In this document: positions 40,101-56,449 of the stretch, piece after piece
Position numbering within the stretch: position 1 is the first letter of the stretch
Layout of the letters: each line of letters opens with the position of its first letter
Source: Bdellovibrionota bacterium
Lineage (GTDB): Bacteria > Bdellovibrionota_C > UBA2361 > CAKMMH01
DNA length: 64,000 nucleotides
Reading direction: 5' to 3'
NCBI GenBank assembly: GCA_050952645.1
Contig: JBMNLI010000007.1
Coordinates: 1-64,000 of the forward strand
Program-made: the position numbers and the translations under genes
Notes under the pieces: generated by a model
Databases searched by the model: none
What the model saw: only the letters and a program-made list of their open reading frames with translations
What the model was told of the DNA's origin: nothing

Positions 40101-40602
40101 AAATTGTTGTGAAGATGGGACAACAGAATGTGGTGATGTGTGTTGTACTATTGGAAAGTGTTTAAAAGCTCGTCGTGAATGTTGCCCAGAAGGGACTACT
40201 CCAAATGAAACTACAAAAAAATGTGAGGCACAGTGTTCAGATTGTTGCGACCTTGAATATGAATATCAGGTATATAGCAATATGTATGGTATGCAGGTTA
40301 TCACGTGTTGCCCAATTGGTGCTACGTGCGATGATTCTGGAAATGTTCAATGTGTAGGAGGGAAAACCCTTAGAACTGTTTATGCATATAGTACCGACCC
40401 AAATACTTATAAGAGTTATAGTGGGTGCTGTATAGATGAAAATTGGGAGCCAAATGGACAATTTGTTCCATGTTCTGGTTGTGTTCCTATTCAATTATAT
40501 AAATGTGGAAGTGGTTCTACTAGTAGTTCAATATCTGAAAGTACATCTATAGATAGCTTAGATGCAAGCACTTCGGCTACTAGTCATAGTAGTAATACGT
40601 GA
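37132..40602 (+). CDS. Large serine-rich / cysteine-rich repeat protein (start uncertain)
   Basis: 1156-codon ORF with three poly-Ser tracts using mixed Ser codons, alternating with duplicated CC-containing modules. Confidence 0.75.
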   Translation: MQALSKDCPTICKFWITAYNLALSKKVATPKQLGFKYFELKGEPCIAKYAILIPGIKLDNDSIKTTKLPGSLWKKEEYADFVPVDKESETIKLRTMKGGKIFIKSGIILDIFKLLDEEFPVAGSFHVGFFRTAQIFDTSSSPKGSSSSSSSSSSSSSSSRSSSLSSSSASSSSSSSLSSSSSSSLSSSSSSPSSSSSSSLSSSLSSSSSSSSSKSSSSSSKSSSSSSSSSSLNPSSSSSSKSPSFSSSSKSSSSSSKSSSPSSSSSSSSLSLSSSSSKSSSSSSSSLSSSLSSSSSKSSSSSSKSSSSSSSLSPSSSKSSSSSSSSSSSSKSSSSFSKSSSSKSSSPSSSSSSSLSSKSSSPSSSSKSSSSPSSSSSSSSLSSLPPEPPITSPSTSSYSSSSSSSSSKKPPLPPVNPSSSSFSSESEDSTSSVPVGGCKPDEDFCFGLCCKKGMCRYMTDGLGNVIAWWCDTQSSSASSLPPVIISESFSSFSSESSSESSLSSESSSESSFESVSESVLSSESESSASFSSACPPERQCDYLCCEEGEECKTYLQENADGEIIPIPSCEKVSESSSSFSSETFSSESLSSASLACPSDRQCGHLCCEEGETCSIEVQEEGEDIYIVYNCVKESVSSSESSLKSVASSESLESSSSSSSSSSLSSSSSKSSSPSSSSPSSSSSSSSSSPSSSSSPSSSSSSSKSSSSSSSSSKSSSPSSSSLSSSSSSSSSSSSSSSSSSSLSSSSSSSFSSSSSSSCSEGTEMCGDVCCDPNKCNSDTCCPNEDPVPCGDEPCCDRNQCNSDDFCCPSDQVPLNDECVDPCDNCCDDREDTFVYTNSYGTEITRCCPQGTVYRTPQGNLWCDANTCRNGDGTVNATEKPCKVGYIYSSHPHPVFVCCRPELCIADENNPGYYICDNQSSSSVSSSQSQDSDSLSSSSLSSSSSSLSSSSSSKSSSSSSSSLSSYSSSSDTSKESISSASICVNGSDARGNCCEDGTTECGDVCCTIGKCLKARRECCPEGTTPNETTKKCEAQCSDCCDLEYEYQVYSNMYGMQVITCCPIGATCDDSGNVQCVGGKTLRTVYAYSTDPNTYKSYSGCCIDENWEPNGQFVPCSGCVPIQLYKCGSGSTSSSISESTSIDSLDASTSATSHSSNT

Positions 40603-40691: not shown

Positions 40692-41444
40692 TTATTTATA
40701 AATCTCAATAACGTAAAGTATTCTTTCTAAAATACCTTCATTCTTGTTTTCACGATTTAAACCAATGATGTAGACATTTTCCTTAGTAAACATTCCAAAA
40801 GTTGCGGCTTTACACATCCACCAATGATTTTGAAATTGAATTCCAGAGTCTAATGTATACTCATCTTGCATGGATTTCAAAAACACCCCAGGATCTAAGA
40901 TTACATCTTCACCATTACTATCAGCGACATATCTTTTTTCCCTTACAATAGGGTTAAGCGTATTGATTCCATCAATTAATGGCTTTTTACTCTTATTAAC
41001 CCAAATATAAGGGCTAGCATCTATTGGCTCTTTATCAAAATCCCAATTGTAATCGAGTCTTCCGTAAAAATCTTCTTCACTGTCTTCAACGACAGTAATT
41101 TTCTTTGAATAATTCTCTATCTTTTTAGGTTTAGCTCTTCCATCCCTGAACCAATAGCCATCTTTTTCAACAGCACTAACGATTTTAGAAAGCTCGTTGT
41201 TAATAGGTTCAGTGCTAACTTGTGAAACCTCTTCATTGAGAAGATTAGTTGCATCGACTGCCTTTGTAGCTTCTTGATTTTCATCGACTGCATCGTTTGG
41301 ATAAGATGCTACGTTGTCATTTTTTTCCACCTTAGTTGCGTCGGGTGGAACGATGGGAGTTTCTGGTTTTTTTTCTTTGCAACCTCCAAGAAGCAAGCAA
41401 AGGGAAACGACAAATAAGGCTGACAGGATAGAAAATTTATTCAT
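40692..41444 (-). CDS. Lipoprotein of unknown function, paralog 1
   Basis: ATG at 41444 after AAAGGAGA; lipobox LLGGC; shares the AV.KDGYWF.DG motif with the next gene. Confidence 0.75.
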   Translation of the reverse strand: MNKFSILSALFVVSLCLLLGGCKEKKPETPIVPPDATKVEKNDNVASYPNDAVDENQEATKAVDATNLLNEEVSQVSTEPINNELSKIVSAVEKDGYWFRDGRAKPKKIENYSKKITVVEDSEEDFYGRLDYNWDFDKEPIDASPYIWVNKSKKPLIDGINTLNPIVREKRYVADSNGEDVILDPGVFLKSMQDEYTLDSGIQFQNHWWMCKAATFGMFTKENVYIIGLNRENKNEGILERILYVIEIYK

Positions 41445-41780
41445 TTTCTTTCTCCTTTTTTTTCTAGTTATCAAACATGTAAAACATATTTGAAAATATC
41501 TTTGGAACGCTTTACATAAACCCATATTATGTAAAGTTTTGCGTTAGATCCTAGCGATATAGTAAAGAATATTGCAAATCTTACGCAAATATACATATAA
41601 AATCAAAATTCTTATCAATTTAAATCAAAGAAACTTTGATAATGACAACCTTAAAGTGTTCTTAAACACTTTAATTATTTTCTCAAAAATAAGCTTTTTA
41701 GTCAATTTTTATGAATATACGTTAGAGTTTTTTTTGTGGGGAGACATTTTTTATATAGATATGTATTGATGTTAAATAAA

Positions 41781-41836: not shown

Positions 41837-42517
41837 CTAGTTCAGTTTAAGTACAGCGATATATTCTTTATTTTTCCAATCCCACCAAAACACCCAAATT
41901 TCCTCTTGTGCATAAAACCCCTGCTTTGACATGTCTGAGCAGTATAGTTCTACATTTATGAACGTTACGCCATTTTCGAATTTGTATTCTTCTAATGGTC
42001 CTTTCTTAAAGAGTGTGCAAGCGTCGATATTATACAACACGTTTTTCGTTTTAGCAGAAGCTAATGCTTCAAAGGTATCCATTCCAACTGTTAGTGGCTT
42101 TTTGTTCTTATTTATCCATATAAGAGTATAAGTATTTGAAGGAGTTTTTTCATCATTAAGTAAAAATCGATTAATAAAATGACCAAAAACTCCATCTTCA
42201 GAATCAAGCCAAACTCTCAACCGATCGGCGTTATTTTCCATTCTTTCAGGCTTTGTTCCATCTTTAAACCAATAGCCATCTTTTTTAACTGCTTTGATGA
42301 TTTCAGCGAACTTGCCACTAATAGGTTCGTCTGTATTTTGAGAAACGTTTTCTCGGGTAGCGTCGAGTTCTCCGTCAGTATTTTGTGTCTGTATTGCAGG
42401 TTGCTGAGCTTCTGTAGGCATGGCGTTTTCATTGTTTCCTTTGCAACCAACGACAAAGAAAGCAAGGCAAATGACCAAAATAACCGATACAAACAAATTA
42501 GTGTTAAACTTTTTCAT
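41837..42517 (-). CDS. Lipoprotein of unknown function, paralog 2
   Basis: Lipobox VVGC; motifs EPI....I..AV.KDGYWF.DG, DSE and IW.NK.KKPL..G shared with paralog 1. Confidence 0.78.
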   Translation of the reverse strand: MKKFNTNLFVSVILVICLAFFVVGCKGNNENAMPTEAQQPAIQTQNTDGELDATRENVSQNTDEPISGKFAEIIKAVKKDGYWFKDGTKPERMENNADRLRVWLDSEDGVFGHFINRFLLNDEKTPSNTYTLIWINKNKKPLTVGMDTFEALASAKTKNVLYNIDACTLFKKGPLEEYKFENGVTFINVELYCSDMSKQGFYAQEEIWVFWWDWKNKEYIAVLKLN

Positions 42518-42916: not shown

Positions 42917-44113
42917 ATGCCAAAATACGATTTAATAATTATAGGTGGTGGGAGTGCTGGGCTAGGAGTTGCAAAAGCTGCAAGCACGGAAAATAATAAA
43001 AAAATCCTACTTATAGATAAAGATAAATTATCATCAAAAACATCGAACGCAAGCTTAAGAATTATCCACGGCGGGCTTAGATACCTTCAAAATTTAGATA
43101 TTATTAGAGTATGCGAATCTCTTCACGCACAAGATAATCTCCTAAAAAAATATAATGATCATATAGAAAGATTACTATGCGTAATGCCTCTTAATAAATT
43201 CGGACTTAAAAGTAAATACCCGATGATATGCGGTAGCATTTTATATAATATAATTTCATTTTTAATTACAGGAAAATCTAACGGCGCATACGTCGGAAAA
43301 ATTAAAAATTATAAAAATGATATAGATATTATAAAAAATAAAAATACATACGCACTTTTTTGGCACGATGCATTACTAAAATCACCACTCTCATTTGCTG
43401 AAACCATAAAAGACGAACTTATTAAAAATAATGTAGAAATATTAGAAAATGAAAAAGTTTTAAGTATAAAAAAAGATAAACAAGATTTTATAGTAGAGAC
43501 TATAAATAACGAAACTATAAATAATAAAACTAGAAATAATAAAACAGGAAATAACGAAGCTAGAAATAATAAAACTAAAAATAATGAAACTAGCGATACC
43601 CAAGAATTTAGTGCAAAATACGTAGTTAATACTACCGGCCCTTGGCTAGAAGAGATAAAAACTAGCGATAATTTAAAAATATATAATAAAAATTATAAAT
43701 GGTGTAAAGCTTTTAATATTATACTAAACAAGAAAGCTAATTTTAAAGAAGCAGTTGGAGTGTTCGGCGAAGATAATAGAGCATTCTTTATAGTGCCTCG
43801 TGATGGCTTTATTTGCGTTGGCACTTGGTACGTGCCATTTAGTGGAGATTTAGAAAATATCGCCCCTTCAAAAGATGAGGTTCAAGCATTTATGTCTTCT
43901 TTTAATAAGGTTGATTTAAATGTAAAGATAACTCTAGATAATATAAAAGAATTAGAAGCTGGGATACTCCCTATGAAAAAAGTCGGAAAAGCAGGACCGG
44001 TTTTATATGGATTAGAAAAAATAAGCATAAACGATAACTACGTAAGAGTATTAAGCACAAAATACACGACATTTTTATCGCAAGGAAAAAAGGTTAAGAA
44101 GTTGATTAAGTAA
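42917..44113 (+). CDS. FAD-dependent oxidoreductase, GlpD (glycerol-3-phosphate dehydrogenase)-like
   Basis: DLIIIGGGSAG, TS.AS.RIIHGGLRYLQ, VVNTTGPW and KYTT; in-frame NNKTR repeats. Confidence 0.8.
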   Translation: MPKYDLIIIGGGSAGLGVAKAASTENNKKILLIDKDKLSSKTSNASLRIIHGGLRYLQNLDIIRVCESLHAQDNLLKKYNDHIERLLCVMPLNKFGLKSKYPMICGSILYNIISFLITGKSNGAYVGKIKNYKNDIDIIKNKNTYALFWHDALLKSPLSFAETIKDELIKNNVEILENEKVLSIKKDKQDFIVETINNETINNKTRNNKTGNNEARNNKTKNNETSDTQEFSAKYVVNTTGPWLEEIKTSDNLKIYNKNYKWCKAFNIILNKKANFKEAVGVFGEDNRAFFIVPRDGFICVGTWYVPFSGDLENIAPSKDEVQAFMSSFNKVDLNVKITLDNIKELEAGILPMKKVGKAGPVLYGLEKISINDNYVRVLSTKYTTFLSQGKKVKKLIK

Positions 44114-44276
44114 GAGGTTTGCACGTTTAGGTTTGCACGTTTTAAAGCGAGAAAAAAAATTAAAGCGAGAAAAAATTAAAGTAAGAAAAAAAATTTGCGA
44201 ATTTTAACTTAAAAAAATCGTGCAATATATATTTTTTTTTAAATGCTAAATAGCTTTTTATATTTTAGAATATTTT

Positions 44277-47200
44277 ATGAAAAATTTTTTTAAAAATAAT
44301 AAGATACTTATTTTTATATTATTATTTGCAGCAACGCTAAGGTTCTTAAATTTAGGCTTCCAAATAGGAAGCCACCCCGATGAGCGTGGGATAGTGATGA
44401 TTTCACTAAACACGGCTACAAATAATTATAATCCTCAAAACTTTCACTATGGACATTTCGTTTATTACTTGCTTTTTTTCTCATCACAATTTTTTAAATA
44501 CTTAAGCGGCACTTTCCCTAAAATAGAAATTTTTAAATTTTTATCATCTTACGACGGTGCATTTTATATAGGTAGAAGCTACGCCGTAGTGCTAAGTTTA
44601 ATTACAATTTTTTTTACATACTTATTAAGTTATAGATTGTTTAATAAAAAAATAGCACTATATTCTTCATTTTTTTTAGCGACTAATCCCTTTTTTATTT
44701 CTCTTTCTAGATATTATACGACAGATATATTCGTCGTATGCTTTATGGTAATGAGCGCTTACTACGCCTTAAAAGCATACGAGTTAAGTTCATACAAAAA
44801 TTATTTACTAAGCGTTTTCTTAGCATCTTTAGGCTTTACTAGTAAAATAAGCATAGCTATGCTTGTTTTCCCTTTAACGTATATTTTTATCTTGTTTTTA
44901 CTTAAGAACAAAAACTACAAATCTTTTAAATTCTATTTTCAATACGTTTTAGTTCCAATAGCACTAAGTCTTTTAACGATTTTTATTTTTGAGCCGTTTT
45001 TATTTTTAGATTTTAGTTCGTTTATAAAAGACAACAAGTTGCAACTAGATATGATTAAGGGAAAATATATGCCTCCTTACACGAGACAATATCTTGAAAC
45101 TAGCAGGGTTTTATACCATCTAGAGCAGATGCTTTTTTATACTATTAGACCAGTAGGCTTTATACTTATGATTTTAGGATTTTATTCTTTGTATGGTAAA
45201 TGTAGCAAATGCACTAAATATACTAAAAAAGAAAATTTTAAATTAGCAAAAATATTTTTATTCTTACTTGTAGTTCCCGCATTTTTAATTACTAGCACTT
45301 ATTTTGTAAAGTTTCCAAGATATTTACTAAGCATTTATCCATACCTTATGATTTTCGTAGCGTTAGGAGTAGTTTTCTTTAAAAATTATAAAGAAAAAGT
45401 GGTTGGAATTTTTGCTATAATTGTTTCAATTATTCTTGCGCTAGATAGCATTTCAATATATTTTAAAGAGCATTCATACGTTGTAGCTTCAAGATGGATT
45501 TATGAAAATGTGCCAAAATTTTCTACTATCGCAAATCCTCATTGGGATGATGTTTTGCCGCTTCATCTTCCTAATATTTCAGCAAGCGATTTTAAATATA
45601 ATTATCACACTAGAGAACAAGAGTTAGCTCTTTATGAAGAAAGCACTGATAGCAACTTAGAAAAATTTGCAAACACTCTATTAAATGCTGATTATATAAC
45701 GTTTCCTGCTGATAGAATGTTTCGTGGTATTTTAGATAAGTTTTCACAAAATAGAGAGTATTCAATAAAAATATTAAGTAGCCTATTTGATGGTTCTCTA
45801 GGTTTTGAAAAAGTCTACGTTTATAAATCGCTCTCTTTGTTATCGACGCTTGGAGTTTATAGCGATGATTTAGCTGACGAGAGTTTAACTGGATATTCAA
45901 ATCCTAAAACGTATATTTTTAAAAAAGTAAAGCAATTAAACTTAGATGAGTTAAAAGATACGATAAAAACGCCGAATAATAAAAAGATATTAGATAAAGT
46001 TTTAAAAGAGAAAAACTTTGATATCAATTCTCTCGTTGTAGATTTATCTACGCCTAGAAAATCTTCTACATTTTTTACTTCTATTTATTACATAATTTTT
46101 TGGCTTATCGCCGTCGACTTGATGTCGATGTATATATTGCCATTCTTATTTATAGTTTGTAAAAATTTTCGAGATAAAGGCTACGGAATATTTAGAGTTT
46201 TAGGCTTGGTAGTTTTTGCATTCGTAGTTTGGATATTAGCTATCGTATTTGGCTTTAAAATTACGAGATTTAATCTATTCGTCGTTTTACTTTCTCTTTA
46301 CGTAGTTTCATATTGGTTTGCAAAAATAAAAAATATAAAAATTTTAGATATTAAAGAAGCGTTCTTAAAAAATATACTAAAAATAGAAGTGTTTTATTTA
46401 TCTATATTTTTAATTTTTGCAATTTTTAAATTTCTTTCTCCTGAAATTGTGTGGGGCGAAAAAACTATGGACTTAGGTTTCTTAAATTATTTTATAAGAT
46501 TAGAAACTCTTCCTTGCGGCGACCCTTGGTCTGTCGGCAGTAAGTTATCTTATTATTTCTTTGGATATTTTACGTTTAGTCTAATACATAAATTATTCTT
46601 AATTCCTTCAGAATACGGCTTTAATTTATCGCTTATCTTATCGGCTTCAATGCTTGCAACATCGCTTCTTACATTGTTTTACTACTTTAAAAAATCGATT
46701 AATTTTTCAATCTTTGCATCAGCTAGCGTTTTGCTTCTTTCAAATCTTGAAATGTTTTATATATACTTTTTTGATAAAACTAAAGTGTGGCAATTAAACT
46801 TTGATTTATATTGGAAAGCCGCTAGAGTTCATGAAAAATATTCGCATGCTATAAGTGAGTTCCCTTTCTGGTCTTTTATTTTTTCCGACCTTCATCCACA
46901 CGTAATGGCGATGCCAATTTTTATTTGTATGCTTATATGCTTTGCTTATATCTACAAAGAAGAAAAATATAATAAATTATTTTTTATACTTTTTCCTATA
47001 ACTGCAGTAGTTTTATGTATGACAAATACTTGGGATGTAGTGTCTATTTCTTTTCTTGCAACCGTTTTTACGCTACTTTTAATATTTTTTAAATGTAGAA
47101 AATCTCTCTATGTAATAAAAACTTTTTTTATTTTAAGCATAATTTCATTAGTCTTCTTTTGCCCATTTTATCTTTATCATTTATCGGCTTCGGATAATAG

Positions 47201-48245
47201 TATAAATTGGGTTCAAGCTTCCGAGTTTCATAGAGCGTTTCACGTCTTTAGACATTTTGGCGTTTGGCTTTTTCTAATATTTTTAAGCTTTTTAGTAAAT
47301 ATTAAAAGCCTTCTTAAAAAAACTAGCCTACTAAAAATCTTCTTATATTTAGTAGCATCGAGCGTGCCTTTTATTTTCGCTAGCTTTTCGCCTTTTGAAA
47401 ACATTTCTTTAGGTATTCAAGCGATAAGTGCATCGTTAATTTTTATTGGGTTAATAAGTCTAGGTGATGATAATTTTTTAAGAAGTGTTTTTATCGTTAC
47501 CTTTGCTATCTTACTGTCTTTTACTGAGCTTTGTTATATTGCAGATAGACCTAACACGATATTTAAGTTTTATTTAGGGATGTGGTTTTTAATAGGAGTT
47601 GCTAGTCTTTTATCGTTAGAAGATATTTTAAAATATAAAATATCAATATTTTTGTGTTCAGTATTATTTTTTATAAGTTTAGCAAGCTCGTGCGTTATAT
47701 ATTATATAATGGCAAAACATACCCATGTAGGAACTGAAAAAGTAATAGGAACGTTAAATGGGACGGAGTTTTTAAAATCACGCTACCAAGACAGGCTAAA
47801 CGTTGTTTCTTATATAAATTCTCATATATTTAAAACTCCAGTTTTAATGGAGGCTTATGGGAAACCTTATATGCCAAACACCACTTTGCCGTACCAAAAA
47901 TACACTGGGCTTCCTATCGTTCAAGGATGGGCTCATCACACTTTTCAGCGTGGCACTAGTAGAGAAAGCATAGCGGAGAAAAAAAGAGATATAGATAGCT
48001 TCTATTTAACTTTAAATAAAAATGAGATTAAAAGAATAATAGATAAGTATAATATCTCTTTAGTAGTAGTAGGAGAAAAAGAACGAGAAAAATATCCGCT
48101 TCTTTCTAATGATGCTAGTAATAAATTTAAGCTATATAATGATATTTTTATTAGTTTATATTCCTCTAATGGTGAAGCGGTGTATTTAGTTCATAAGAAC
48201 AGGGCAGATTTTAAAAATTCGGTAGATTTTTTTGTTGGATATTAA
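44277..48245 (+). CDS. GT-C glycosyltransferase (PMT_2/ArnT-like) fused to a DUF2298 (Chlor_Arch_YYY-like) membrane domain
   Basis: N-terminal HPDE..NP..F.YG, KFPRYL and HWDD.LP; C-terminal GEKTMD, DPW..G...YYFFG, EFPFWSF...DLHPH, NTWD, NTIFKFY and TGLP...GW..H..QRG. Confidence 0.8.
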   Translation: MKNFFKNNKILIFILLFAATLRFLNLGFQIGSHPDERGIVMISLNTATNNYNPQNFHYGHFVYYLLFFSSQFFKYLSGTFPKIEIFKFLSSYDGAFYIGRSYAVVLSLITIFFTYLLSYRLFNKKIALYSSFFLATNPFFISLSRYYTTDIFVVCFMVMSAYYALKAYELSSYKNYLLSVFLASLGFTSKISIAMLVFPLTYIFILFLLKNKNYKSFKFYFQYVLVPIALSLLTIFIFEPFLFLDFSSFIKDNKLQLDMIKGKYMPPYTRQYLETSRVLYHLEQMLFYTIRPVGFILMILGFYSLYGKCSKCTKYTKKENFKLAKIFLFLLVVPAFLITSTYFVKFPRYLLSIYPYLMIFVALGVVFFKNYKEKVVGIFAIIVSIILALDSISIYFKEHSYVVASRWIYENVPKFSTIANPHWDDVLPLHLPNISASDFKYNYHTREQELALYEESTDSNLEKFANTLLNADYITFPADRMFRGILDKFSQNREYSIKILSSLFDGSLGFEKVYVYKSLSLLSTLGVYSDDLADESLTGYSNPKTYIFKKVKQLNLDELKDTIKTPNNKKILDKVLKEKNFDINSLVVDLSTPRKSSTFFTSIYYIIFWLIAVDLMSMYILPFLFIVCKNFRDKGYGIFRVLGLVVFAFVVWILAIVFGFKITRFNLFVVLLSLYVVSYWFAKIKNIKILDIKEAFLKNILKIEVFYLSIFLIFAIFKFLSPEIVWGEKTMDLGFLNYFIRLETLPCGDPWSVGSKLSYYFFGYFTFSLIHKLFLIPSEYGFNLSLILSASMLATSLLTLFYYFKKSINFSIFASASVLLLSNLEMFYIYFFDKTKVWQLNFDLYWKAARVHEKYSHAISEFPFWSFIFSDLHPHVMAMPIFICMLICFAYIYKEEKYNKLFFILFPITAVVLCMTNTWDVVSISFLATVFTLLLIFFKCRKSLYVIKTFFILSIISLVFFCPFYLYHLSASDNSINWVQASEFHRAFHVFRHFGVWLFLIFLSFLVNIKSLLKKTSLLKIFLYLVASSVPFIFASFSPFENISLGIQAISASLIFIGLISLGDDNFLRSVFIVTFAILLSFTELCYIADRPNTIFKFYLGMWFLIGVASLLSLEDILKYKISIFLCSVLFFISLASSCVIYYIMAKHTHVGTEKVIGTLNGTEFLKSRYQDRLNVVSYINSHIFKTPVLMEAYGKPYMPNTTLPYQKYTGLPIVQGWAHHTFQRGTSRESIAEKKRDIDSFYLTLNKNEIKRIIDKYNISLVVVGEKEREKYPLLSNDASNKFKLYNDIFISLYSSNGEAVYLVHKNRADFKNSVDFFVGY

Positions 48246-48365
48246 AATCGTTTTAAAAAAAAATTAAAGTTTTAATACTAAAATTTAAAAGCTAAAAATT
48301 TTTACAAGCTAAAATTTTAAAACAAAAATAGTATAAAAAATTTATTATAACAAAAGGAAGCTTAA

Positions 48366-50576
48366 ATGATATTACTATTATTTATATGTCTTTTAATGTT
48401 CGTGTTTTTATTCTTTTCAATTCCAGTTATAGAAGCGTCTTGTATATGTTATATAGCGATGGTTATTTTCTATTTTATTTTAGGGAAAATGGGAGTAGCA
48501 AGCAGTGCATCTATTATTATATCGTTTCTTCTTACATTGCTTTTATTGATATCTTTAAAAAAATTACAATCTGATAAAATTACTAAGGAAAATTTAGATA
48601 AAAAAAAATTTAATATAAATTTTAATATTAAAGAGTTAAATTATATTTTAGCGTTTGCTTTTCTTTATACTTGTTTTTATATTTTAAATTTATCTTGGGG
48701 AGATTTTATATCTATAGGAGAAAGGCTAAGGGATTATTCAATTTTAGCAAGCGTAATACATTCACCTATCGATGTAAAGGAGCCTTGGTTTTCGGGATTA
48801 ACTTTAAATTACTACGCTTTCTGGTATCGGGCAGGGGCTCTTGTAAGTTATGTGTTTAATTATGAAGTTTTTGAGACGTACCATATTTTATCTACGCTTA
48901 ACACGACTTTTTTCGTAATGCTAGTTTTCGTCATATTAAATAAGTATTTAAGTTTTTCTTTTTTTCGATCTGTGCTTCTTACTTTTTTAGTATTCCCAGG
49001 GAGTAATATTAACGGTATAAAATTCTTTTTTTCAGCCGATACTAATTGGTGGGGACCATCTAGAGTTATTAAAGGTGCCATTACGGAGTTTCCAGCTTGG
49101 TCATTCGTATTAGGAGATATCCATCCTCATTTTTTAAACTTATTATTTTTTCCTTTAATTGTTTTACTTTTACTTTCTTTTACATTTTCTAAACAAGATT
49201 TAAGGCAGGATTTAGAGCAAGATTCAAATCAAAACAAGATAAATAATATTTTATTATTTATATCTTTTTTTATTTATTCCAACTCTTTTCTCATATAATG
49301 CTAATGTTTGGGATGTTCCAATTTACTTATTACTGTTTTTTGGACTTTTAACCTTTTTATATATTTTAATTTCTTGTTATAAAAAAAGTTTTACATCTTT
49401 TAATAGCAAATTAAAAAAATAAGATAAATTTAAATCAATGTTTTTTAGCATTGATTATTTTTATTTTAATAGTTTCATTATATTTATCTTCTAGAAATAT
49501 TACTTCCGTTGGTGCGTCTTTAAAGTTTGTAAAAGGAGAGGTTGAAAGAACGACGCTTTATGAATTTATAGACGCTTTTGGAATGCAGTTTTTCTTAATT
49601 TTTGTAGGACTATTTTTACTTATAAAAAATAGGTGTGCAAAAGTTTTGCTTTCTATATTACTAGTAGGAGCGATACTGTTTTGTAAAGTAGCGCTTTTCC
49701 CGATAGTTATTTTGCTATGTTTTAATATATATAGAATACATGAAGATGTAAAAAGCAGTGATGATTATTTAAAAGATAATAAAAAGCTAGTGTTTGAAAC
49801 ATTAGGCGTAGTTTCTTTGCTTCTATGGGCAATTCCTGAAATTGTATATCTTCAAGATGGCTATGGTGTTTTACATGCTAGAATGAATACTATTTTTAAA
49901 ATTTATAGTGCTAATTGGGCTATTAGTTTTTTATTTGTTTTTTATTTAATAAGACGTGTTTTAGAAAAATATAAAGAAAGTAATAAAGAAAATTATAATG
50001 ATAATGAAAATTATAATAGTAAAAATAAGCAAGTCGTTTTAACTTTTAATATATTATTTTCTTTTATTTCGCTTATATCTGTGCTTTGTTTTTTTAAATT
50101 AATCGACTTAAGAAAAACGGATTATAAGGCTAGTTTTAAGGAAAGAAGTGCTGGGCTTATAGAGTTAAATAAGATAGATGGCGGTAAGTTTAGCGGAGTT
50201 AAAAACACGATAGAAGATTTAAGGACTAGAGAAAGGGGTGTGGTTTTAGAAGCGACTAATGGAGCTTATAATTACGCTTCTCACGTAGGAACGCTTTCAG
50301 GCAATACGTCATATTTAGGCTGGATAAACCATGTGGGGTTATTATATAAAAATCATGATGATATAAATATTAGAAAGCAGAATATAGATGATTTTTATAC
50401 GAAAATGAGTTGCTCTGAGAGGAAAACGGTTTATGAAAGATAATAATATATCTTACGTAGTTCTTGGGCCTTTAGAAAAGGAAGAATATAAGGATAGAAT
50501 AAATAATGATTTTTATTGTTTGAAAAATATTATACAATACGGAAAGTATAGTATTTTTATGCCCTTTACTTTTTAG
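48366..50576 (+). pseudogene. Second DUF2298-family membrane protein, split by frameshifts (possibly sequencing error)
   Basis: GERLRD, EPWFSG..LNYYAFW, EFPAWSFVLGDIHPH, NVWD, RMNTIFKIY and LGWINH; the last frame ends ...IFMPFTF* at 50576. Confidence 0.75.
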
Positions 50577-50743
50577 TGGAGATTTTCTTTTACGTCCTTT
50601 GCTTTTATGAGGGGGGTGGCTTAAAAGAAAATCGACACGAGCGAAGCTCTAGGGGCGATTTTCTTTTAAGGCCTATGCGTAATCGATGATAAGTGTGGGA
50701 ACTAAAAGTAAAGGGCTGTAATTTTTATGTCCTTTACTTTTTA
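50553..50743. repeat. Nested palindromic element with 23-bp direct repeats
   Basis: Direct repeats at 50553-50575 and 50721-50743, an inverted copy at 50701-50716, and an inner 15-bp inverted repeat at 50620-50634 / 50656-50670. Confidence 0.85.
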
Positions 50744-50798
50744 AGCATAAAGAAGCTTGTTTTTGTAAAGCAATAATTTTATAAAGGAATAATATTTA

Positions 50799-51770
50799 AT
50801 GGATAATCTTTATTTAGAAAAGCGCAAAGCTTCTCTGCAAAGTATTTCAGTAGTAGTTCCGTGTTATAATGAAGAAGAGGTAATTACAGAAACTTATAAG
50901 CGGTTAAAGGCAGTATTAAATAAGGTCGGTATTCCTTATGAGATTATTTTTGTAGATGATGGAAGTAAGGACAATACTTGGGGGTTATTATCAGAGCTTT
51001 CAGATAATGATAAATGTGTAAAAGCTATAAAACTTGCTAGAAATCATGGACATCAATTTGCACTTACTTGCGGGCTTGATCAGAGCAAAGGAGAGGTGGT
51101 GCTTATAATCGATGCCGATTTACAAGACCCTCCCGAGCTTTTAGAAGAAATGCTTGAAAAATGGAAGGAAGGCTACTACGTAATTTACGGCAAGAGGATA
51201 GCGAGAGATGGCGAGAGTCGCTCGAAGAGATTTTTTGCTTTTAGTTTTTATAGAATTATTTCAAAAATTTCAAAAATAGAAATTCCAAGAGATACTGGAG
51301 ATTTTAGGCTAGTCGATAGAAAGGCTTTAGATGTTTTGCTTAAGATGCGTGAACCGCAAAGATTTATTAGAGGCATGGTAGCTTGGATAGGTTTTCCGCA
51401 AACGCCTATTTTATACCATAGACAGGAACGCTTCGCAGGAAGCACTAAGTATCCTTTTAAGAAAAGTTTGCTTTTAGCCTTCGATGCTATTACATCTTTT
51501 TCATACGTGCCGTTAAGGCTTACTACTTATTTAGGAATGTTTTTCTCGTTCTTTTCATTTATATATTTTATAGTAGTAATAGTATTAAAATTTAAGGGGG
51601 TAAACTTTTCAGGATACACTTCTTTAATGGGAGCGATTTTAATGCTCGGTGGCATTCAACTTATAATGCTAGGAATTATAGGAGAGTATGTAGGAAGAAT
51701 TTTTCAGCAGGGGCAAAAAAGACCGTTATATATAATTCAAGATATAAAAGGAGAACCGTTTGAAAAATAG
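50799..51770 (+). CDS. GT2 polyprenol-phosphate glycosyltransferase (GtrB/ArnC-like)
   Basis: [34 protein letters not shown] and TGDFRL, with two C-terminal TMs and [10 protein letters not shown]. Confidence 0.92.
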
Positions 51771-53066
51771 CAAAGAAAGAGTAGCTATCGTAGGAGCTGG
51801 ATTTGCAGGACTTGCTTGTGCATTCGATTTAGCAAAAAATGGGTTTGATGTTACTGTATTTGAAAAAGAAAGCGAAGCTGGAGGGCTAGCAGGAAGTTTT
51901 ACTTTAAAAAACGGCACATCCGTTGAAAAGTTTTATCACCATTTATTTACTACCGATAAAGATATTTATGATTTTCTAGAAGAGTTAGGTTTAAAGTCGA
52001 AATTAAGAGCGTATGAAAGTAAAACTGGAATATATTGCGATGATAAAATTTATTCACTTTCATCGCCTTTAGATTTATTAAAGTTTAAGCCGTTAAAATT
52101 TTAGAAAGAATAAAAATGGGATTAGGAGTGCTAAAAGCAAAGGCTATAAGAAGCTATCTTCGTTTAGAAGATATGTTTGCAACTACTTGGCTAAAAGATA
52201 ATTGTGGAAAAGAAGCTTATAAGAAAGTTTGGCTTCCACTATTAAAGGGCAAGTTTGGTGATTGCTACGAGGAGATTTCTGCCGTTTGGATATGGAATAA
52301 ATTTAAGTTAAGAGGCGGTAGTAGGAATAATGGAGGACACGAAGTTTTAGTGTATTTTGAAAATGGATTTAAGGAAATAATTAGTAAAATATGTAGCAAG
52401 CTTGAAGCACTCGGAGTTAAGTTTTTATTTGATAGTCCCGTAGATAAGGTAGAAAAAGAGGGCGATGAGTTTTTAGTTTATTCTAATGGGAGTGTGTATA
52501 ATTTTAAAAAACTTTCGTTTACTACATCTCCTAAAGATTTTGTAGATGTAGTAAAATTTTTGCCTACCGATTATAAAAACTCTTTAATGCGTATTAGGCA
52601 TTTAGCAAATATTTGTTTAGTTTTAGTTTTAGATAAAAAATTTTCAGATATTTATTGGCTAAATGTAGCAGATGAGAATTTTCCTTTCGTAGGGATAATA
52701 GAGCATACTAATTTTCATAGTAGTGAGCATTACGGTGGAAAGCATATATTATATTTATCAAAGTATTTAAAAGAATACGATGTGCTTTACTCTTATTCAA
52801 AAGAAGAGCTAGTAGACTATAGTTTAAAGTTTCTACAAAAAATAAATCCAGATTTTAAAAAGGATAGCATAGAAGAAGCGTATCTGTTTAAGTCTAAGTG
52901 TAGCCAACCAATTATTGAAAAGGAGTATTCTAAATTATTATTTAGCATGAAAACTAAGGTTGATAATTTGTTTTTTACCTCGATGGCGCAAATTTATCCT
53001 CAAGATAGGGGGACTAATTTTGCGGTTAAGTATGGAAGAATGTTAGCTAAGGAAATGTTAGGATAG
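51760..53066 (+). CDS. FAD/NAD-dependent oxidoreductase (HemY/amine-oxidase-like), split by a 1-nt deletion in a T-run near 52100
   Basis: [26 protein letters not shown] and [10 protein letters not shown]; adding one T restores LKFLERIKM. Confidence 0.8.
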
Positions 53067-53110
53067 TTTTAGCTAAAATTAACTTAAAGGATAAAAGGAA
53101 AGTTTATTAA

Positions 53111-55108
53111 ATGAATAGTAATAAAGAAAAATATTTTACGAAAGGACAGTGGGTGCTATATGGGACTATAATAATTTTAGCACTACTTTTTAGAGGCTCT
53201 GGGCTGGAAGATAGACCTATTCATCACGATGAAGCTATCCATTTAATGCAAGGATATTATTGCTACGCTTGGCCTATGGAGCGCCCAGGCGAGCCTTGCT
53301 ATAAATACGACCCTATGACGCATGGTCCTTTTTTATACCATTCTTTAGGTGTAGTTTACAGGCTTTTAGGTAGCTCTGTATTTTCAGGAAGAGTATATAT
53401 GGCATTTTTAGGTTTTATCTTTGTGCTTCTTCCTTTCTGTTTTAGAAAGTATTTAAAGCCTAAAACTACATTATTTTTAACGATGCTTATAGGACTTTCG
53501 CCTACTATGATTTATTGGTCTCGGTTTGTTAGAAGCGACTACTTGATGCTTTCTTGGTGGTGCATGATTTTATTAGGAGCCGTGCTTGCTCCGCCTAAGT
53601 GGAAATCGTTTTTCGTTATATTAGGTTTAAGTTTGCAGATTTGCACTAAGGAAAATTCGTACGTTTTCTTTGCGATAATGTTAGGGTATTTGTTGTTTGA
53701 GTATTGTTTTTGTAAGTTTAAAGATAATAGTTATAAGGAGACGTGTTTATATAAAATATATAAGAATTTTTTATCTTATAAATTTATGTATCTTGTATCG
53801 ATAAGTGTTTCTCTTTTTGTGATGTATTATTTTTTCTCTAGTGGATTTAAATATTTTTTAGACTCTCCTTCTTTCTTTGAAAAATATTTTGGCACATTGC
53901 TAGATGGTATTTATAGAAAAAGTTTTGCATATTGGTTAGGCTTACACGGGGAGGAAAGAATAAAGGGACCTTTCTTGTATCAATTTTATATGATGGCTTG
54001 GCATGAGTTTTTTTTAGTGCTCGTGTTTTTAGGGCATATTGTTTATCTTATGAAAAAAGCTATTTGGGCAAGATACGTATTTATTTTATCTTTCTTAACA
54101 TCGATAGTTTTAGCTCTAACGCATAGTTATATCGGGCTTACAGATACAGTGATTTGGAATTTTTTTAAATTAAAAAATACTTATGATTTTTTTGGCTTAT
54201 GTATTTTGCCTACTTATTCAGTTGTAGTGACTATTTATCATTTATTAAGAAATGAAAAGGCTTTAGCCTTTTTTGGTTATTTTGCATCGGCAAATATGGC
54301 GACTTACTGTTATCTAGGAGAAAAAGTTCCTTGGCTTAGTGTATATCCTATTTTAGCTTTTATGATTTATTATGCTTTGTTATTTAACGAAGTGCTTAAA
54401 TCGCCTTTTTACGATAAGGCTAAAGAGTTTAGTGTAGCGCTTATGATGAATATTATTGGTGGCATTAGTATATTGCTCGGTATAATTTTTATACTTCAAT
54501 CTGAAAATTATAAGGTATTAGGCAATATTGACTTTATAGTATTTGGTATTATTTTATGTATATTAGCGAGTAGTTTTAAGGAAGCTAAGTTTAATCTTAT
54601 AAAATTTATTTTTATAGTCTTTTTTATTTATGATATTCGAGTAGCTAGGATAGTTAATTTTCAAAATGCTGGAAGTGAGCGTGAGGTTTTTAGTCAAGTT
54701 CATACATCGAGAGAACTACATAATGTTTTAAATGGCATAAAAGATACGATAGATTCTTATAGGTTAGGCTATGAGCCTTTGATGTATGTAAAGGGAGAAA
54801 CTGAGTGGCCTACCGTAACTTATATGATCGGCTATAGGCAATTAAAGTATTCTATGGCAGGGCATAAGTTAGAAGATTTTAAGTATTTAATTGAAGACCA
54901 GGAGTCGACTAGGAAAGAGAAAAAGCAAGAGAGCATCGTTAAGGGGCATGAAGATAAGTATAATTCTAGCTTGATAAAGACTAGATATTGGTGGGCTCCA
55001 GATTACGACAAGATGACGTTAAAGGCATTTTTAAATTACTCTTTTAATCACGTTCCTTGGAGTGGGCCAGGGTATTTTCATGCGATGTTTCATGTTAGGA
55101 AAGAGTAA
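53111..55108 (+). CDS. Agl23-like (TIGR03663) GT-C fold membrane protein
   Basis: RPIHHDEAIH, YKYDP..HGPFL, SP...YWSRF.R.D, TKEN, GEKVPWL and QVHTS. Confidence 0.78.
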   Translation: MNSNKEKYFTKGQWVLYGTIIILALLFRGSGLEDRPIHHDEAIHLMQGYYCYAWPMERPGEPCYKYDPMTHGPFLYHSLGVVYRLLGSSVFSGRVYMAFLGFIFVLLPFCFRKYLKPKTTLFLTMLIGLSPTMIYWSRFVRSDYLMLSWWCMILLGAVLAPPKWKSFFVILGLSLQICTKENSYVFFAIMLGYLLFEYCFCKFKDNSYKETCLYKIYKNFLSYKFMYLVSISVSLFVMYYFFSSGFKYFLDSPSFFEKYFGTLLDGIYRKSFAYWLGLHGEERIKGPFLYQFYMMAWHEFFLVLVFLGHIVYLMKKAIWARYVFILSFLTSIVLALTHSYIGLTDTVIWNFFKLKNTYDFFGLCILPTYSVVVTIYHLLRNEKALAFFGYFASANMATYCYLGEKVPWLSVYPILAFMIYYALLFNEVLKSPFYDKAKEFSVALMMNIIGGISILLGIIFILQSENYKVLGNIDFIVFGIILCILASSFKEAKFNLIKFIFIVFFIYDIRVARIVNFQNAGSEREVFSQVHTSRELHNVLNGIKDTIDSYRLGYEPLMYVKGETEWPTVTYMIGYRQLKYSMAGHKLEDFKYLIEDQESTRKEKKQESIVKGHEDKYNSSLIKTRYWWAPDYDKMTLKAFLNYSFNHVPWSGPGYFHAMFHVRKE

Positions 55109-55640: not shown

Positions 55641-55716
55641 TAAATATTTTGCTTATTTGCAGTTTTGTTTTAGTTTATTTTATTTTAGTTTCCGTGAGAG
55701 GAGTGGGGGAAGAATT

Positions 55717-56124
55717 GTGGAAAAACTTAAGTTAGATGTATCAAGGCTTAGAAATGCCTTAGCGTCTTTAAGAAGGTGCTTTAATGATTACAAGGCTAAT
55801 ACTAATGCTACAATGCAGGAGTATATAGAGGATGCTTGTGTAAAAAGATTTGAGTTTACCATAGAAACTTCATGGAAGATTATGAAAAAATATTTAAAAG
55901 AGGTTTATGGTGTGCAAGATAGAGAACTTACGATAAATAATATTTTTAGACTTATGCAAGGTTATGGATTTATAAAATCATGGGAAAGTTGGAAAAGTTA
56001 TTATGAAAGGAGAAATGAAGAGTATAGCCCTAAAAACACTAAAGAGATTTTAAATTATATAGGGCCTTTTTTAGAAGACGTAACATTTTTATACGAGAAG
56101 CTTAACTTTGCATTAGATAAATAA
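55717..56124 (+). CDS. HEPN (HI0074-like) toxin of a HEPN-MNT pair, lacking the catalytic His
   Basis: DACVKRFEFTIETSWK signature; GTG start at 55717; adjacent to an MNT gene. Confidence 0.8.
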   Translation: MEKLKLDVSRLRNALASLRRCFNDYKANTNATMQEYIEDACVKRFEFTIETSWKIMKKYLKEVYGVQDRELTINNIFRLMQGYGFIKSWESWKSYYERRNEEYSPKNTKEILNYIGPFLEDVTFLYEKLNFALDK

Positions 56125-56140
56125 CGAAAGGGAGAAATAG

Positions 56141-56449
56141 ATGAAATACGGGATAAACGAGAAAGAATTAGAGATTGTAAATAGTATTTTAAGCAAGTAT
56201 GAAGAAGATTATTCTTTTTATTTTTATGGTTCTAGGATAAAAGGTAATTTTCAAGCAACGTCGGATTTAGATATTTTAATTAAGGGGGGAAGTGAGATGC
56301 CTTTAAACGTGCTAAACAATTTAAAAAATGGGTTTGATGTATCGCCTCTTTCTTTCATTCCTAATTTTTGTGATTATCATAAAATTTCTAAAGAGTTTTA
56401 TGAACTTATTAAGGCAGATCTTATTTCTAATAGGGAATTGATAGTTTAA
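56141..56449 (+). CDS. Minimal nucleotidyltransferase (MNT) antitoxin
   Basis: FYGSRIKG....SDLDILI motif. Confidence 0.85.
   Translation: MKYGINEKELEIVNSILSKYEEDYSFYFYGSRIKGNFQATSDLDILIKGGSEMPLNVLNNLKNGFDVSPLSFIPNFCDYHKISKEFYELIKADLISNRELIV

What the first reader, a model, noticed from the sequence alone, without database searches (positions are those of the whole stretch)
42917..55108. Archaeal/Chloroflexi-like GT-C glycosylation cluster
Seen: a co-oriented run of GlpD-like oxidoreductase, PMT-like/DUF2298 fusion, a second DUF2298, a GT2 lipid-carrier glycosyltransferase, an FAD oxidoreductase and an Agl23-like protein. Known: the YYY/DUF2298 and TIGR03663 families were described mainly from Chloroflexi and archaea, and Agl23 is linked to Sulfolobus N-glycosylation. 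Inference: an uncharacterised extracytoplasmic glycosylation pathway in which GT2 loads a polyprenol-phosphate sugar, the oxidoreductase may modify it, and about four GT-C domains transfer it to surface proteins or envelope glycans.
Basis: partly seen in the sequence, partly recalled or inferred. Interest (0 to 1): 0.7.

Follow-up and report, generated by a model that had tools for sequence, protein, structure and literature searches.

The report
Conserved Bdellovibrionota membrane sugar-transfer cluster
An uncultured Bdellovibrionota-related bacterium and most of its order carry a gene set predicted to load a sugar onto a lipid carrier, likely alter it with an untested flavoenzyme, and likely transfer it to the cell surface with four membrane sugar-transferase domains; the design is of a known kind, but two of its protein families have no tested function in the papers searched.

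Summary
The six genes are real. HMMs confirm a PMT_2-DUF2298/YYY fusion, a second DUF2298, a GtrB-like GT2, a PRK07233 flavoprotein and TIGR03663/Agl23. Two genes are broken by four single-base indels that other strains lack. The module is not a local archaeal import: YYY occurs in 56 of 73 genomes of the order and travels with a long Agl23 (55 of 60 YYY genomes, 1 of 36 others). The YYY model has a GT-C fold with an STT3/ArnT-like outer domain but no WWDYG motif. Agl23 (from Haloarcula, not Sulfolobus) keeps ArnT's D-E motif. The GlpD-like gene is a bystander. The most interesting part is PRK07233, often labelled protoporphyrinogen oxidase. It sits beside lipid-sugar synthases and flippases (33 of 39 metagenome loci; 4 of 4 annotated plasmid loci inside PPPRS-DprE1-DprE2-epimerase-GtrA operons), and in one clade a UDP-galactopyranose mutase takes its slot. 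It likely tailors the lipid-linked sugar. Acceptor and sugar are unknown. This scan noted a similar module earlier in Chloroflexota. Verdict: new variant of known three-component extracytoplasmic glycosylation.

The parts
42917..44113 (+). Short GlpD-like FAD oxidoreductase (398 aa); neighbour only, probably not part of the pathway
   Evidence: DAO and PRK12266 below cut-off; PDB hits are GlpD/GlpO; found in 56 of 61 relatives, adjacent to YYY only in this family
44277..48245 (+). Fusion of an ArnT/PMT-like GT-C domain (about residues 1-600, H-P-D-E motif) and YYY-a (DUF2298/TIGR03662, about 605-1322)
   Evidence: PMT_2 58.8 bits, TIGR03662 317 bits; HPDE kept in 12 of 12 homologues checked; fused in many relatives, separate genes in others
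48366..50576 (+). YYY-b, a divergent DUF2298 paralogue; predicted GT-C fold with an STT3/ArnT-like outer domain; three homopolymer indels in this assembly (near 49265, 49413, 50421)
   Evidence: DUF2298 hits on both pieces; intact 688-aa orthologue in G001; model pLDDT 88 and GT-C-only top hits; indels absent in run X2
50799..51770 (+). GtrB/PgfS-like GT2, predicted polyprenyl-phosphate sugar synthase
   Evidence: PF00535 127 bits; PgfS and ArnC best but below cut-off; two C-terminal hydrophobic segments; overlaps the next gene by 11 nt
51760..53066 (+). PRK07233-family flavoprotein, predicted to tailor the lipid-linked sugar; one homopolymer indel near 52098 in this assembly
   Evidence: NF005560 137 + 297 bits on the pieces, 479 on the intact G001 gene, cut-off 252; fold nearest phytoene desaturase/PPO; neighbourhood
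53111..55108 (+). Long-form Agl23 (TIGR03663), GT-C-like membrane protein; transferase or flippase
   Evidence: TIGR03663 195 bits; PMT_2 28 bits on the N-terminal 300 aa; only PDB hit of the profile is ArnT, E 0.018, with H-H-D-E on ArnT's P-D-E; D40 and E41 invariant in 26 of 26

Best explanation
This is a conserved cluster of five genes that likely forms an extracytoplasmic glycosylation line: the GtrB-like GT2 is predicted to put a sugar on undecaprenyl phosphate, the PRK07233 flavoprotein likely changes that lipid-linked sugar, the lipid is likely flipped, and four predicted GT-C domains (PMT-like, YYY-a, YYY-b, Agl23) would transfer sugar to an envelope acceptor in the periplasm. Shown: the genes, their families, their co-inheritance across the order, the neighbourhood of PRK07233 in other lineages, and (as models) the GT-C fold of YYY and the PDS/PPO-type fold of the flavoprotein. 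Inferred, with my odds: GT2 makes Und-P-sugar (0.9, by family); PRK07233 acts on the lipid-linked sugar by redox epimerisation or ring change rather than in another pathway (0.6); YYY proteins are active transferases (0.8); flipping is by one of four unlinked UPF0104 proteins or by Agl23 (about even); the acceptor is surface protein such as the serine-rich Tad-type proteins of this genome (0.45) rather than LPS or a glycan chain. The GlpD-like gene is a bystander.
For: HMM scores above curated cut-offs for YYY-a, PRK07233 and Agl23. YYY in 60 of 96 genomes of the phylum, 56 of 73 in the order; long Agl23 in 55 of 60 YYY genomes and 1 of 36 others, within 12 kb of YYY in 41 of 55; PRK07233 in 49 of 60. 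All 20 Foldseek hits of the YYY-b model at E<=0.001 are GT-C enzymes (DPY19, STT3, AftA, AglB, PglB); VIA: STT3 Z 15.5, rmsd 6.8, 444 aligned; ArnT Z 15.1, rmsd 5.7, 440 aligned; isolated AglB C-terminal domain Z 9.7, rmsd 2.9, 111 aligned. Invariant E105, D109, E227, D237-x-H-x-H, R482-x-N-T in 23 of 23 YYY sequences. GT2 directly upstream of PRK07233 in 22 of 27 loci read in the order, the window included. In metagenomes 33 of 39 PRK07233 loci with at least 2.5 kb upstream have a GtrB-like GT2 (30), UPF0104 (23) or GtrA (2) beside it. Four of 4 annotated plasmid loci read have UbiA-DprE1-like-DprE2-like-epimerase-PRK07233-GtrA, a run whose donor is built on the lipid (pathway logic from PMC11127046). 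In 5 genomes a short GT2 plus a eukaryote-type UDP-galactopyranose mutase (E 3e-136 to 4dsg) fills the slot upstream of Agl23. No hemE, hemH or squalene/phytoene synthase found in the genome, 93.75% complete. Precedent for GtrB + GT-C glycosylating Ser/Thr-rich proteins: PMC12041528 passages.
Against: No activity is shown for any part. The YYY fold match is loose (TM 0.3-0.45, rmsd 5-8 A, 8-12% identity) and sequence profiles find no PDB relative. The mutase swap maps to one clade of the Agl23 tree (quick tree, SH-aLRT 93; G013 not included), so it is about one event; 3 genomes of that clade have the short GT2 and Agl23 with no flavoprotein, and 5 genomes carry both PRK07233 and a mutase on other contigs. 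PRK07233 is adjacent to Agl23 in only 29 of 48 genomes, most of them one family. Its closest folds are phytoene desaturase and PPO, not sugar enzymes, and it lacks most mutase residues. The cluster has no GtrA (none found in the genome) and no UPF0104. The genome has 8 PMT_2-like matches and a separate GT2-UbiA-DprE1-DprE2 operon, so donors and transferases cannot be paired from gene order alone. In this assembly two genes are frameshifted.
Confidence: 0.72

Rival explanations
1. Same pathway, but Agl23 is the flippase for the Und-P-sugar rather than a transferase, so the cluster is a self-contained synthase + tailor + flippase + transferase unit.
For: H. hispanica Agl23 is described as a putative hexose-P-dolichol flippase and flipped M5GN2-PP-lipid in proteoliposomes (PMC11182771 passages). 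Here Agl23 follows GT2-flavoprotein, near where GtrA or UPF0104 sit in other lineages, and the cluster has no other flippase.
Against: Agl23 keeps a GT-C catalytic-type D-E pair in 26 of 26 sequences and matches PMT_2 and ArnT. Four UPF0104 genes elsewhere could flip.
Confidence: 0.3
2. PRK07233 acts on the polyprenol carrier itself (desaturation or saturation of the isoprenoid chain), not on the sugar.
For: Closest solved fold is phytoene desaturase (Z 35.3, rmsd 3.0, 428 aligned), above PPO (33) and UDP-galactopyranose mutase (30.1); HpnE is among the next NCBIfam hits.
Against: Conserved residues are polar (H60, E317, H318, N320, Q385, Y415, D418, R419). It sits after sugar epimerases and before GtrA in four plasmid operons and can be replaced by a sugar mutase.
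Confidence: 0.15
3. The GT-C proteins modify LPS or lipid A, or elongate an envelope polysaccharide, not proteins.
For: ArnT ties with STT3 as the best fold; no WWDYG motif and no STT3 match in the genome; the genome has a fabZ/lpxA-type operon by my reading of ORF starts (not HMM-tested). A same-order run (prenyltransferase, oxidoreductase, SDR, epimerase, 'protoporphyrinogen oxidase', GtrA) lies in Xanthomonas LPS loci (PMC2238763 passages).
Against: YYY and PRK07233 also occur in archaea without LPS (control genomes). The genome has many serine-rich surface proteins.
Confidence: 0.35
4. In this strain the pathway is partly switched off or decaying: the four indels are real.
For: Four indels fall within 2.9 kb while the 8 other G001 genes compared are intact in the window; contigs of run X1 keep the two indels they bridge.
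Against: All four are single bases in homopolymer runs and are absent from X2's contig; X4 and X3 agree where they cover. X1 may be the source of the assembly.
Confidence: 0.3

Closest known systems
Three-component extracytoplasmic glycosylation (GtrB/GtrA/Gtr*; Citrobacter PPPRS-flippase-GT-C with auxiliary epimerases, PMC11127046: abstract, introduction, passages and supplement passages read)
   Same: Lipid-sugar synthase, a tailoring enzyme and GT-C transferases in one locus; Fig. S12 text of that paper lists an uncharacterised 'NAD(P)/FAD dependent oxidoreductase' in elaborate systems.
   Different: Four GT-C-type domains from three families; no GtrA/MATE/SMR flippase in the cluster; tailoring enzyme is of the PDS/PPO fold rather than DprE1/E2 or an SDR.
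Streptococcal Pgf and GtrB-PgtC2 protein O-glycosylation (PMC12041528, passages read)
   Same: GtrB-type GT2 (best NCBIfam hit PgfS) with paired GT-C enzymes; Ser/Thr-rich surface proteins are available in the genome.
   Different: PgfS cut-off not met (285 of 500); the GT-Cs are DUF2298, PMT_2 and TIGR03663, with no YfhO hit listed; diderm host; acceptor not shown.
Haloarcula hispanica Agl22/Agl23 (TIGR03663; Lu et al. 2020 seen only as cited in PMC11182771)
   Same: TIGR03663 above cut-off; next to a lipid-sugar synthase.
   Different: Longer form (about 650-830 aa) tied to a YYY pair; I read it as GT-C-like with a D-E motif, whereas the archaeal protein is described as a flippase.
STT3/AglB/PglB oligosaccharyltransferases and ArnT
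   Same: Predicted GT-C membrane core plus a C-terminal outer domain of the same fold.
   Different: No WWDYG motif, no PF02516 match, 8-12% identity.
UDP-galactopyranose mutase (eukaryote type)
   Same: Same flavoprotein superfamily (hhalign 98.8%); His of the flavin loop and the C-terminal Tyr kept; occupies the same slot in one clade.
   Different: Most substrate-binding residues listed in PMC3624792 Table 3 have no counterpart in PRK07233.

Membership tests
DUF2298 / TIGR03662 (YYY) | HMM score above curated cut-off, YYY-a | tested here: met
   TIGR03662 317.1 vs 300.25; PF10060 193 vs 27.8
DUF2298 / TIGR03662 (YYY) | TIGR03662 cut-off, YYY-b | tested here: not met
   Intact G001 orthologue scores 191 vs 300.25; it does pass PF10060 (147 vs 27.8): a divergent paralogue
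GT-C superfamily (YYY proteins) | GT-C membrane fold with outer domain | tested here: met
   Predicted model pLDDT 88; 20 of 20 Foldseek hits at E<=0.001 are GT-C; VIA Z 15.5 and 15.1
GT-C superfamily (YYY proteins) | Catalytic acidic residue in the first outer loop | tested here: inconclusive
   E105 and D109 are invariant after the first core helix, but residue-level superposition was not available
GT-C superfamily (all four domains) | Sugar transfer from a polyprenyl-phosphate donor | not testable with these tools
   Needs an assay
STT3/AglB/PglB oligosaccharyltransferase | WWDYG motif (recalled) and PF02516 match | tested here: not met
   No such motif in alignment A1; PF02516 finds 0 of 1 in the genome while 4 archaeal controls ring
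Agl23 / TIGR03663 | HMM score above cut-off | tested here: met
   195.4 vs 126.25
Agl23 / TIGR03663 | Flippase activity | not testable with these tools
   Reported for the H. hispanica protein only
GtrB-like polyprenyl-phosphate sugar synthase | GT2 domain plus two C-terminal membrane helices, about 320 aa | tested here: met
   PF00535 127 bits; hydrophobic segments starting near 245 and 276
PgfS equivalog (NF047588) | Curated cut-off | tested here: not met
   285 vs 500
PRK07233 (NF005560) | Curated cut-off | tested here: met
   479 vs 252 for the intact orthologue; 297 for the larger window piece
UDP-galactopyranose mutase | Diphosphate- and uracil-binding residues (R182, Y317, R327, Y419, Y453; Y104, F158 in AfUGM) | tested here: not met
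   Residue list from PMC3624792 Table 3; mapping to motifs is recalled. By alignment the Y453 equivalent is kept, R182 is Lys (Arg in the PPPRS-linked subfamily), R327 is Gly, Y317 is Asn, Y419 is Gln and the uracil-binding segment is absent
Protoporphyrinogen oxidase HemY, phytoene desaturase or HpnE | Family cut-off and pathway partners in the genome | tested here: not met
   TIGR00562 56 vs 97.85, HpnE 78 vs 283; no hemE, hemH or SQS_PSY found in a 93.75% complete genome
GlpD glycerol-3-phosphate dehydrogenase | Equivalog cut-off and full length | tested here: not met
   116 vs 360; 398 aa against a 508-position model
Three-component extracytoplasmic glycosylation system | Lipid-sugar synthase and GT-C in one locus | tested here: met
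Three-component extracytoplasmic glycosylation system | Flippase for the donor | tested here: inconclusive
   No GtrA found; four unlinked UPF0104 genes; Agl23 is a candidate

The most novel reading that the evidence does not exclude
PRK07233 is a widespread, mis-annotated class of flavoenzymes that rearranges sugars while they sit on polyprenyl phosphate (a lipid-level counterpart of UDP-galactopyranose mutase, switching ring size), and the YYY-a/YYY-b pair is an undescribed STT3-like transferase family, shared by bacteria and archaea, that builds glycans on the long serine stalks of Tad-type surface proteins. In the PPPRS-DprE1-DprE2-SDR operons the same enzyme would turn a lipid-linked pentofuranose into a pentopyranose donor.
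Probability: 0.2. Interest if true: 0.75.

Novelty: new variant of a known kind. Interest (0 to 1): 0.45.

Why it matters
It gives testable functions to two large families with no characterisation in the papers searched. DUF2298/YYY is predicted here to be a GT-C with an oligosaccharyltransferase-like outer domain. PRK07233 (at least 5,090 homologues at E<=1e-20, many labelled protoporphyrinogen oxidase) is tied to lipid-linked sugar donors across lineages, so those labels are probably wrong. Both occur in Haloferax volcanii and Methanosarcina acetivorans, so the test does not need the uncultured host. The overall design is not new, which caps the interest.

Tried and rejected
GlpD-like gene as a pathway member: rejected. 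PRK07233 as HemY, CrtI or HpnE: rejected on cut-offs and missing partners. PRK07233 as a UDP-galactopyranose mutase: residues not met. Genome-level mutual exclusion of PRK07233 and the mutase looked strong in 61 genomes but weakened in 96: five genomes have both, and the slot swap is one clade. Complex prediction of GT2 with PRK07233: no verdict, score 0.00, not used either way. Amphipathic-helix test on PRK07233: moments 0.11-0.28, nothing clear. Profile of its C-terminal half against PDB: no real hit. YYY profile against PDB: no real hit; YYY versus Agl23 profiles: no similarity. No PRK07233 match in phages. ESM Atlas returned only DUF2298 and amine-oxidase-type clusters. Promoter scan at chance level, 58 found vs 67 expected. 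No RNA holder listed. Second read laying showed no coding indel from 42917 to 48245 where covered. Papers: 'DUF2298' 2 papers, 1 read as a passage, a table entry only; TIGR03662/TIGR03663 terms had no occurrences among the 20 of 93 listed; PRK07233/PRK07208 none, COG1232 two unrelated listings; Bdellovibrionota + glycosylation + GT-C none; two searches on L-xylose/UbiA/GtrA term sets returned none; two more gave listings without a characterised lipid-linked mutase. The Sulfolobus Agl24 paper gave 0 passages for Agl23 although the listing counted 3. The library lacks most subscription papers; Lu et al. 2020 was not read. No tree against archaeal or Chloroflexota YYY was built, so origin is open.
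Full report
Observation. The stretch 42917-55108 holds six co-oriented genes followed by smpB. The second DUF2298 and the flavoprotein are split by three and one single-base indels in homopolymer runs. One contig of run X2 lacks all four, X4 lacks three and X3 one; X1, perhaps the source sample, keeps the two it bridges. With X2's indels the frames are 735 and 435 aa, 409/683 and 262/435 identical to the intact G001 genes. I read them as probable assembly errors (about 0.7); the species has the intact genes either way.

Host and distribution. The genome is 1.95 Mb, about 31% G+C, 93.75% complete. Two close relatives are titled Bdellovibrionota / Bdellovibrionales MAGs, and matching runs are digester, bioreactor, wastewater and landfill metagenomes. 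TIGR03662 is found in 41 of 61 relatives and in 60 of 96 genomes of the phylum at E<=1e-20: 56 of 73 in the order, 4 of 23 outside. It nearly always comes as a pair, YYY-a then YYY-b, 18-23% identical. A long form of Agl23 occurs in 55 of 60 YYY genomes and 1 of 36 others (three short-form hits, G004, G012 and G016, were left out of this count), and lies within 12 kb of YYY in 41 of 55; 13 of the rest are on other contigs. PRK07233 occurs in 49 of 60. Kin are not independent and one family supplies 29 genomes. The six-gene order of the window is kept only in the four genomes of this family. The PMT domain is fused to YYY-a in many relatives and separate in others.

The GlpD-like gene. It is found in 56 of 61 relatives. 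In 20 loci outside this family none has YYY, Agl23 or the GT2 in the flanks read; 5 of 20 sit with a methyltransferase, an FrhB-like 4Fe-4S protein or a GT4. It is not part of the module.

YYY. The intact G001 YYY-b folded with mean pLDDT 88.4. All 20 Foldseek hits at E<=0.001 are GT-C enzymes. VIA ranks yeast STT3 (Z 15.5, rmsd 6.8, 444 aligned) and ArnT (Z 15.1, rmsd 5.7, 440 aligned) as tied, and the last 130 residues match the isolated AglB C-terminal domain (Z 9.7, rmsd 2.9, 111 aligned). The match is to the architecture, not to one family: identity is 8-12%, there is no WWDYG motif (motif recalled) and no STT3 match in the genome. Invariant G-E-x-x-x-D, E227, D-x-H-x-H and R-x-N-T residues suggest an active enzyme. 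A shared fold does not show function.

Agl23 and the PMT domain. Agl23 comes from Haloarcula hispanica, where it is described as a putative flippase and moved lipid-linked glycan in liposomes (PMC11182771, passages). The profile of 26 homologues has one PDB hit, ArnT (E 0.018, weak), with invariant D40-E41 on ArnT's P-D-E (its catalytic role in ArnT is recalled), and the N-terminal part passes the PMT_2 cut-off. So it is GT-C-like; transferase or flippase is open. The fused PMT domain keeps H-P-D-E in 12 of 12. No GtrA was found in the genome, but four unlinked UPF0104 genes were.

The flavoprotein. The GT2 overlaps it by 11 nt and lies directly upstream in 22 of 27 loci read in the order. Among 80 metagenome loci, 39 have at least 2.5 kb upstream; 33 of these have a GtrB-like GT2, UPF0104 or GtrA beside it (the detecting profiles were built from the same loci, and the scan favoured this subfamily). 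A sister subfamily, also above the NF005560 cut-off, lies in UbiA-DprE1-like-DprE2-like-epimerase-X-GtrA runs in 4 of 4 annotated plasmid loci read (8 hits, 5 opened, 1 unannotated). By the pathway of PMC11127046 such runs build the donor from PRPP on the lipid, so an enzyme placed between the epimerases and the flippase most simply acts on the lipid-linked sugar. That paper's Fig. S12 text lists such an oxidoreductase without a function, and a same-order run with a 430-aa 'protoporphyrinogen oxidase' is in Xanthomonas LPS loci (PMC2238763 passages; bioRxiv 2022.03.02.482478 passages; not tested by sequence). In G013, G022, G030, G049 and G054 a short GT2 and a eukaryote-type UDP-galactopyranose mutase stand upstream of Agl23 and PRK07233 is not found above cut-off. 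Against over-reading this: the swap is one clade in a quick Agl23 tree, G014, G017 and G048 have the short GT2 with no flavoprotein, and five genomes carry both enzymes on different contigs. The model (pLDDT 92) is nearest phytoene desaturase (Z 35.3, rmsd 3.0, 428 aligned), then PPO (33) and the mutase (30.1, rmsd 3.5, 408 aligned). It keeps the flavin-loop His and a C-terminal Tyr of the mutase but not most substrate-binding residues, so it is not a member. No hemE, hemH or squalene/phytoene synthase was found, so the common 'protoporphyrinogen oxidase' label does not fit here.

Mechanism. Most likely: GT2 makes Und-P-sugar; PRK07233 changes the sugar on the lipid; UPF0104 or Agl23 flips it; the PMT-like domain, YYY-a, YYY-b and perhaps Agl23 add sugars in the periplasm. 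A second donor, Und-P-arabinofuranose, may feed in: the genome has a GT2-UbiA/HAD-DprE1-DprE2 operon on C17, and DprE1/E2-like genes lie next to cluster parts in G013, G020 and G011. The acceptor is not shown. Candidates are the serine-rich surface proteins: 20 of 1,477 ORFs have a 40-residue stretch at least half Ser/Thr, about a dozen of them one family with a pilin-like leader (TadE match absent or below cut-off). One copy without its leader lies 2.3 kb upstream of the cluster, and TadE/TadG genes flank the short-GT2 version in six genomes of one clade. GtrB + GT-C glycosylation of Ser/Thr-rich proteins is known in streptococci (PMC12041528 passages). LPS or a polysaccharide remain possible acceptors.

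Novelty. The architecture is the known three-component extracytoplasmic glycosylation, elaborated. The searches named under Tried and rejected found no functional study of DUF2298 or PRK07233 and no report of such a system in Bdellovibrionota, within a library that lacks most subscription papers; of the supplements only that of PMC11127046 was searched. Earlier unchecked notes of this scan describe DUF2298 + TIGR03663 + UPF0104 + PRK07233 in Chloroflexota and a flavoprotein-linked GT-C module elsewhere. What this locus adds is order-wide co-inheritance, the mutase slot swap and the PPPRS-operon context for PRK07233. Verdict: real, new variant of a known kind, interest 0.45.

Noticed in passing
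window 37132-40602 (+): 1156-aa poly-serine, Cys-rich ORF; one of about a dozen copies of a family whose fuller members start with a pilin-like leader. This copy begins at residue 137 of the C17:323835-327158 copy, so it lacks the leader.
   Followed up: partly
window 40692-41525 and 41837-42517 (-): Two lipoprotein-like ORFs with no Pfam family; a 42% identical relative of the second lies next to the C17 poly-Ser copy (L202:831-1769).
   Followed up: partly
L097:9998-14369 (G000 C17 about 162-166 kb): Separate GT2 - HAD/UbiA (PPPRS-like) - DprE1-like - DprE2-like operon, a predicted Und-P-arabinofuranose source with no adjacent flippase or GT-C.
   Followed up: partly
window 42917-44113; L060, L061, L065, L067, L071; L098:7612-9746 and L100:5977-7158: The short GlpD-like family is nearly universal in the order and in 5 of 20 loci sits with a methyltransferase, an FrhB-like 4Fe-4S protein or a GT4; this genome has all three partners elsewhere. 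Possibly a separate uncharacterised pathway.
   Followed up: partly
L042:12533-13894, L048, L050, L103-L107: Eukaryote-type UDP-galactopyranose mutases (E 3e-136 to 4dsg) in 11 of 96 genomes of the phylum at 56% identity or more, plus G049, some in the Agl23 slot and some in unrelated loci.
   Followed up: partly
L197, L198, L209, L210 (plasmids); L077, L079: A second PRK07233 subfamily paired with an SDR epimerase; on four plasmids it lies inside UbiA-DprE1-DprE2-epimerase-X-GtrA operons. Candidate route to a lipid-linked pentopyranose (inference).
   Followed up: partly
window 55657-56449 (+): HI0074-type nucleotidyltransferase substrate-binding gene plus minimal nucleotidyltransferase after smpB, a type VII toxin-antitoxin-like pair; absent at this place in G001.
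   Followed up: no
window about 50590-50690: A palindromic intergenic element between YYY-b and GT2; replaced by a short stretch in run X2 and absent in G001-G003, where the genes nearly touch.
   Followed up: no
window 57522-60905 (+): Aas-type MFS + acyltransferase + AMP-binding fusion (PRK08633 1001 bits, cut-off 1221), kept in G001.
   Followed up: no
L114, L115, L116: Families lacking YYY carry a short Agl23 (about 490-550 aa) that forms a distant clade and lies among unrelated genes.
   Followed up: partly
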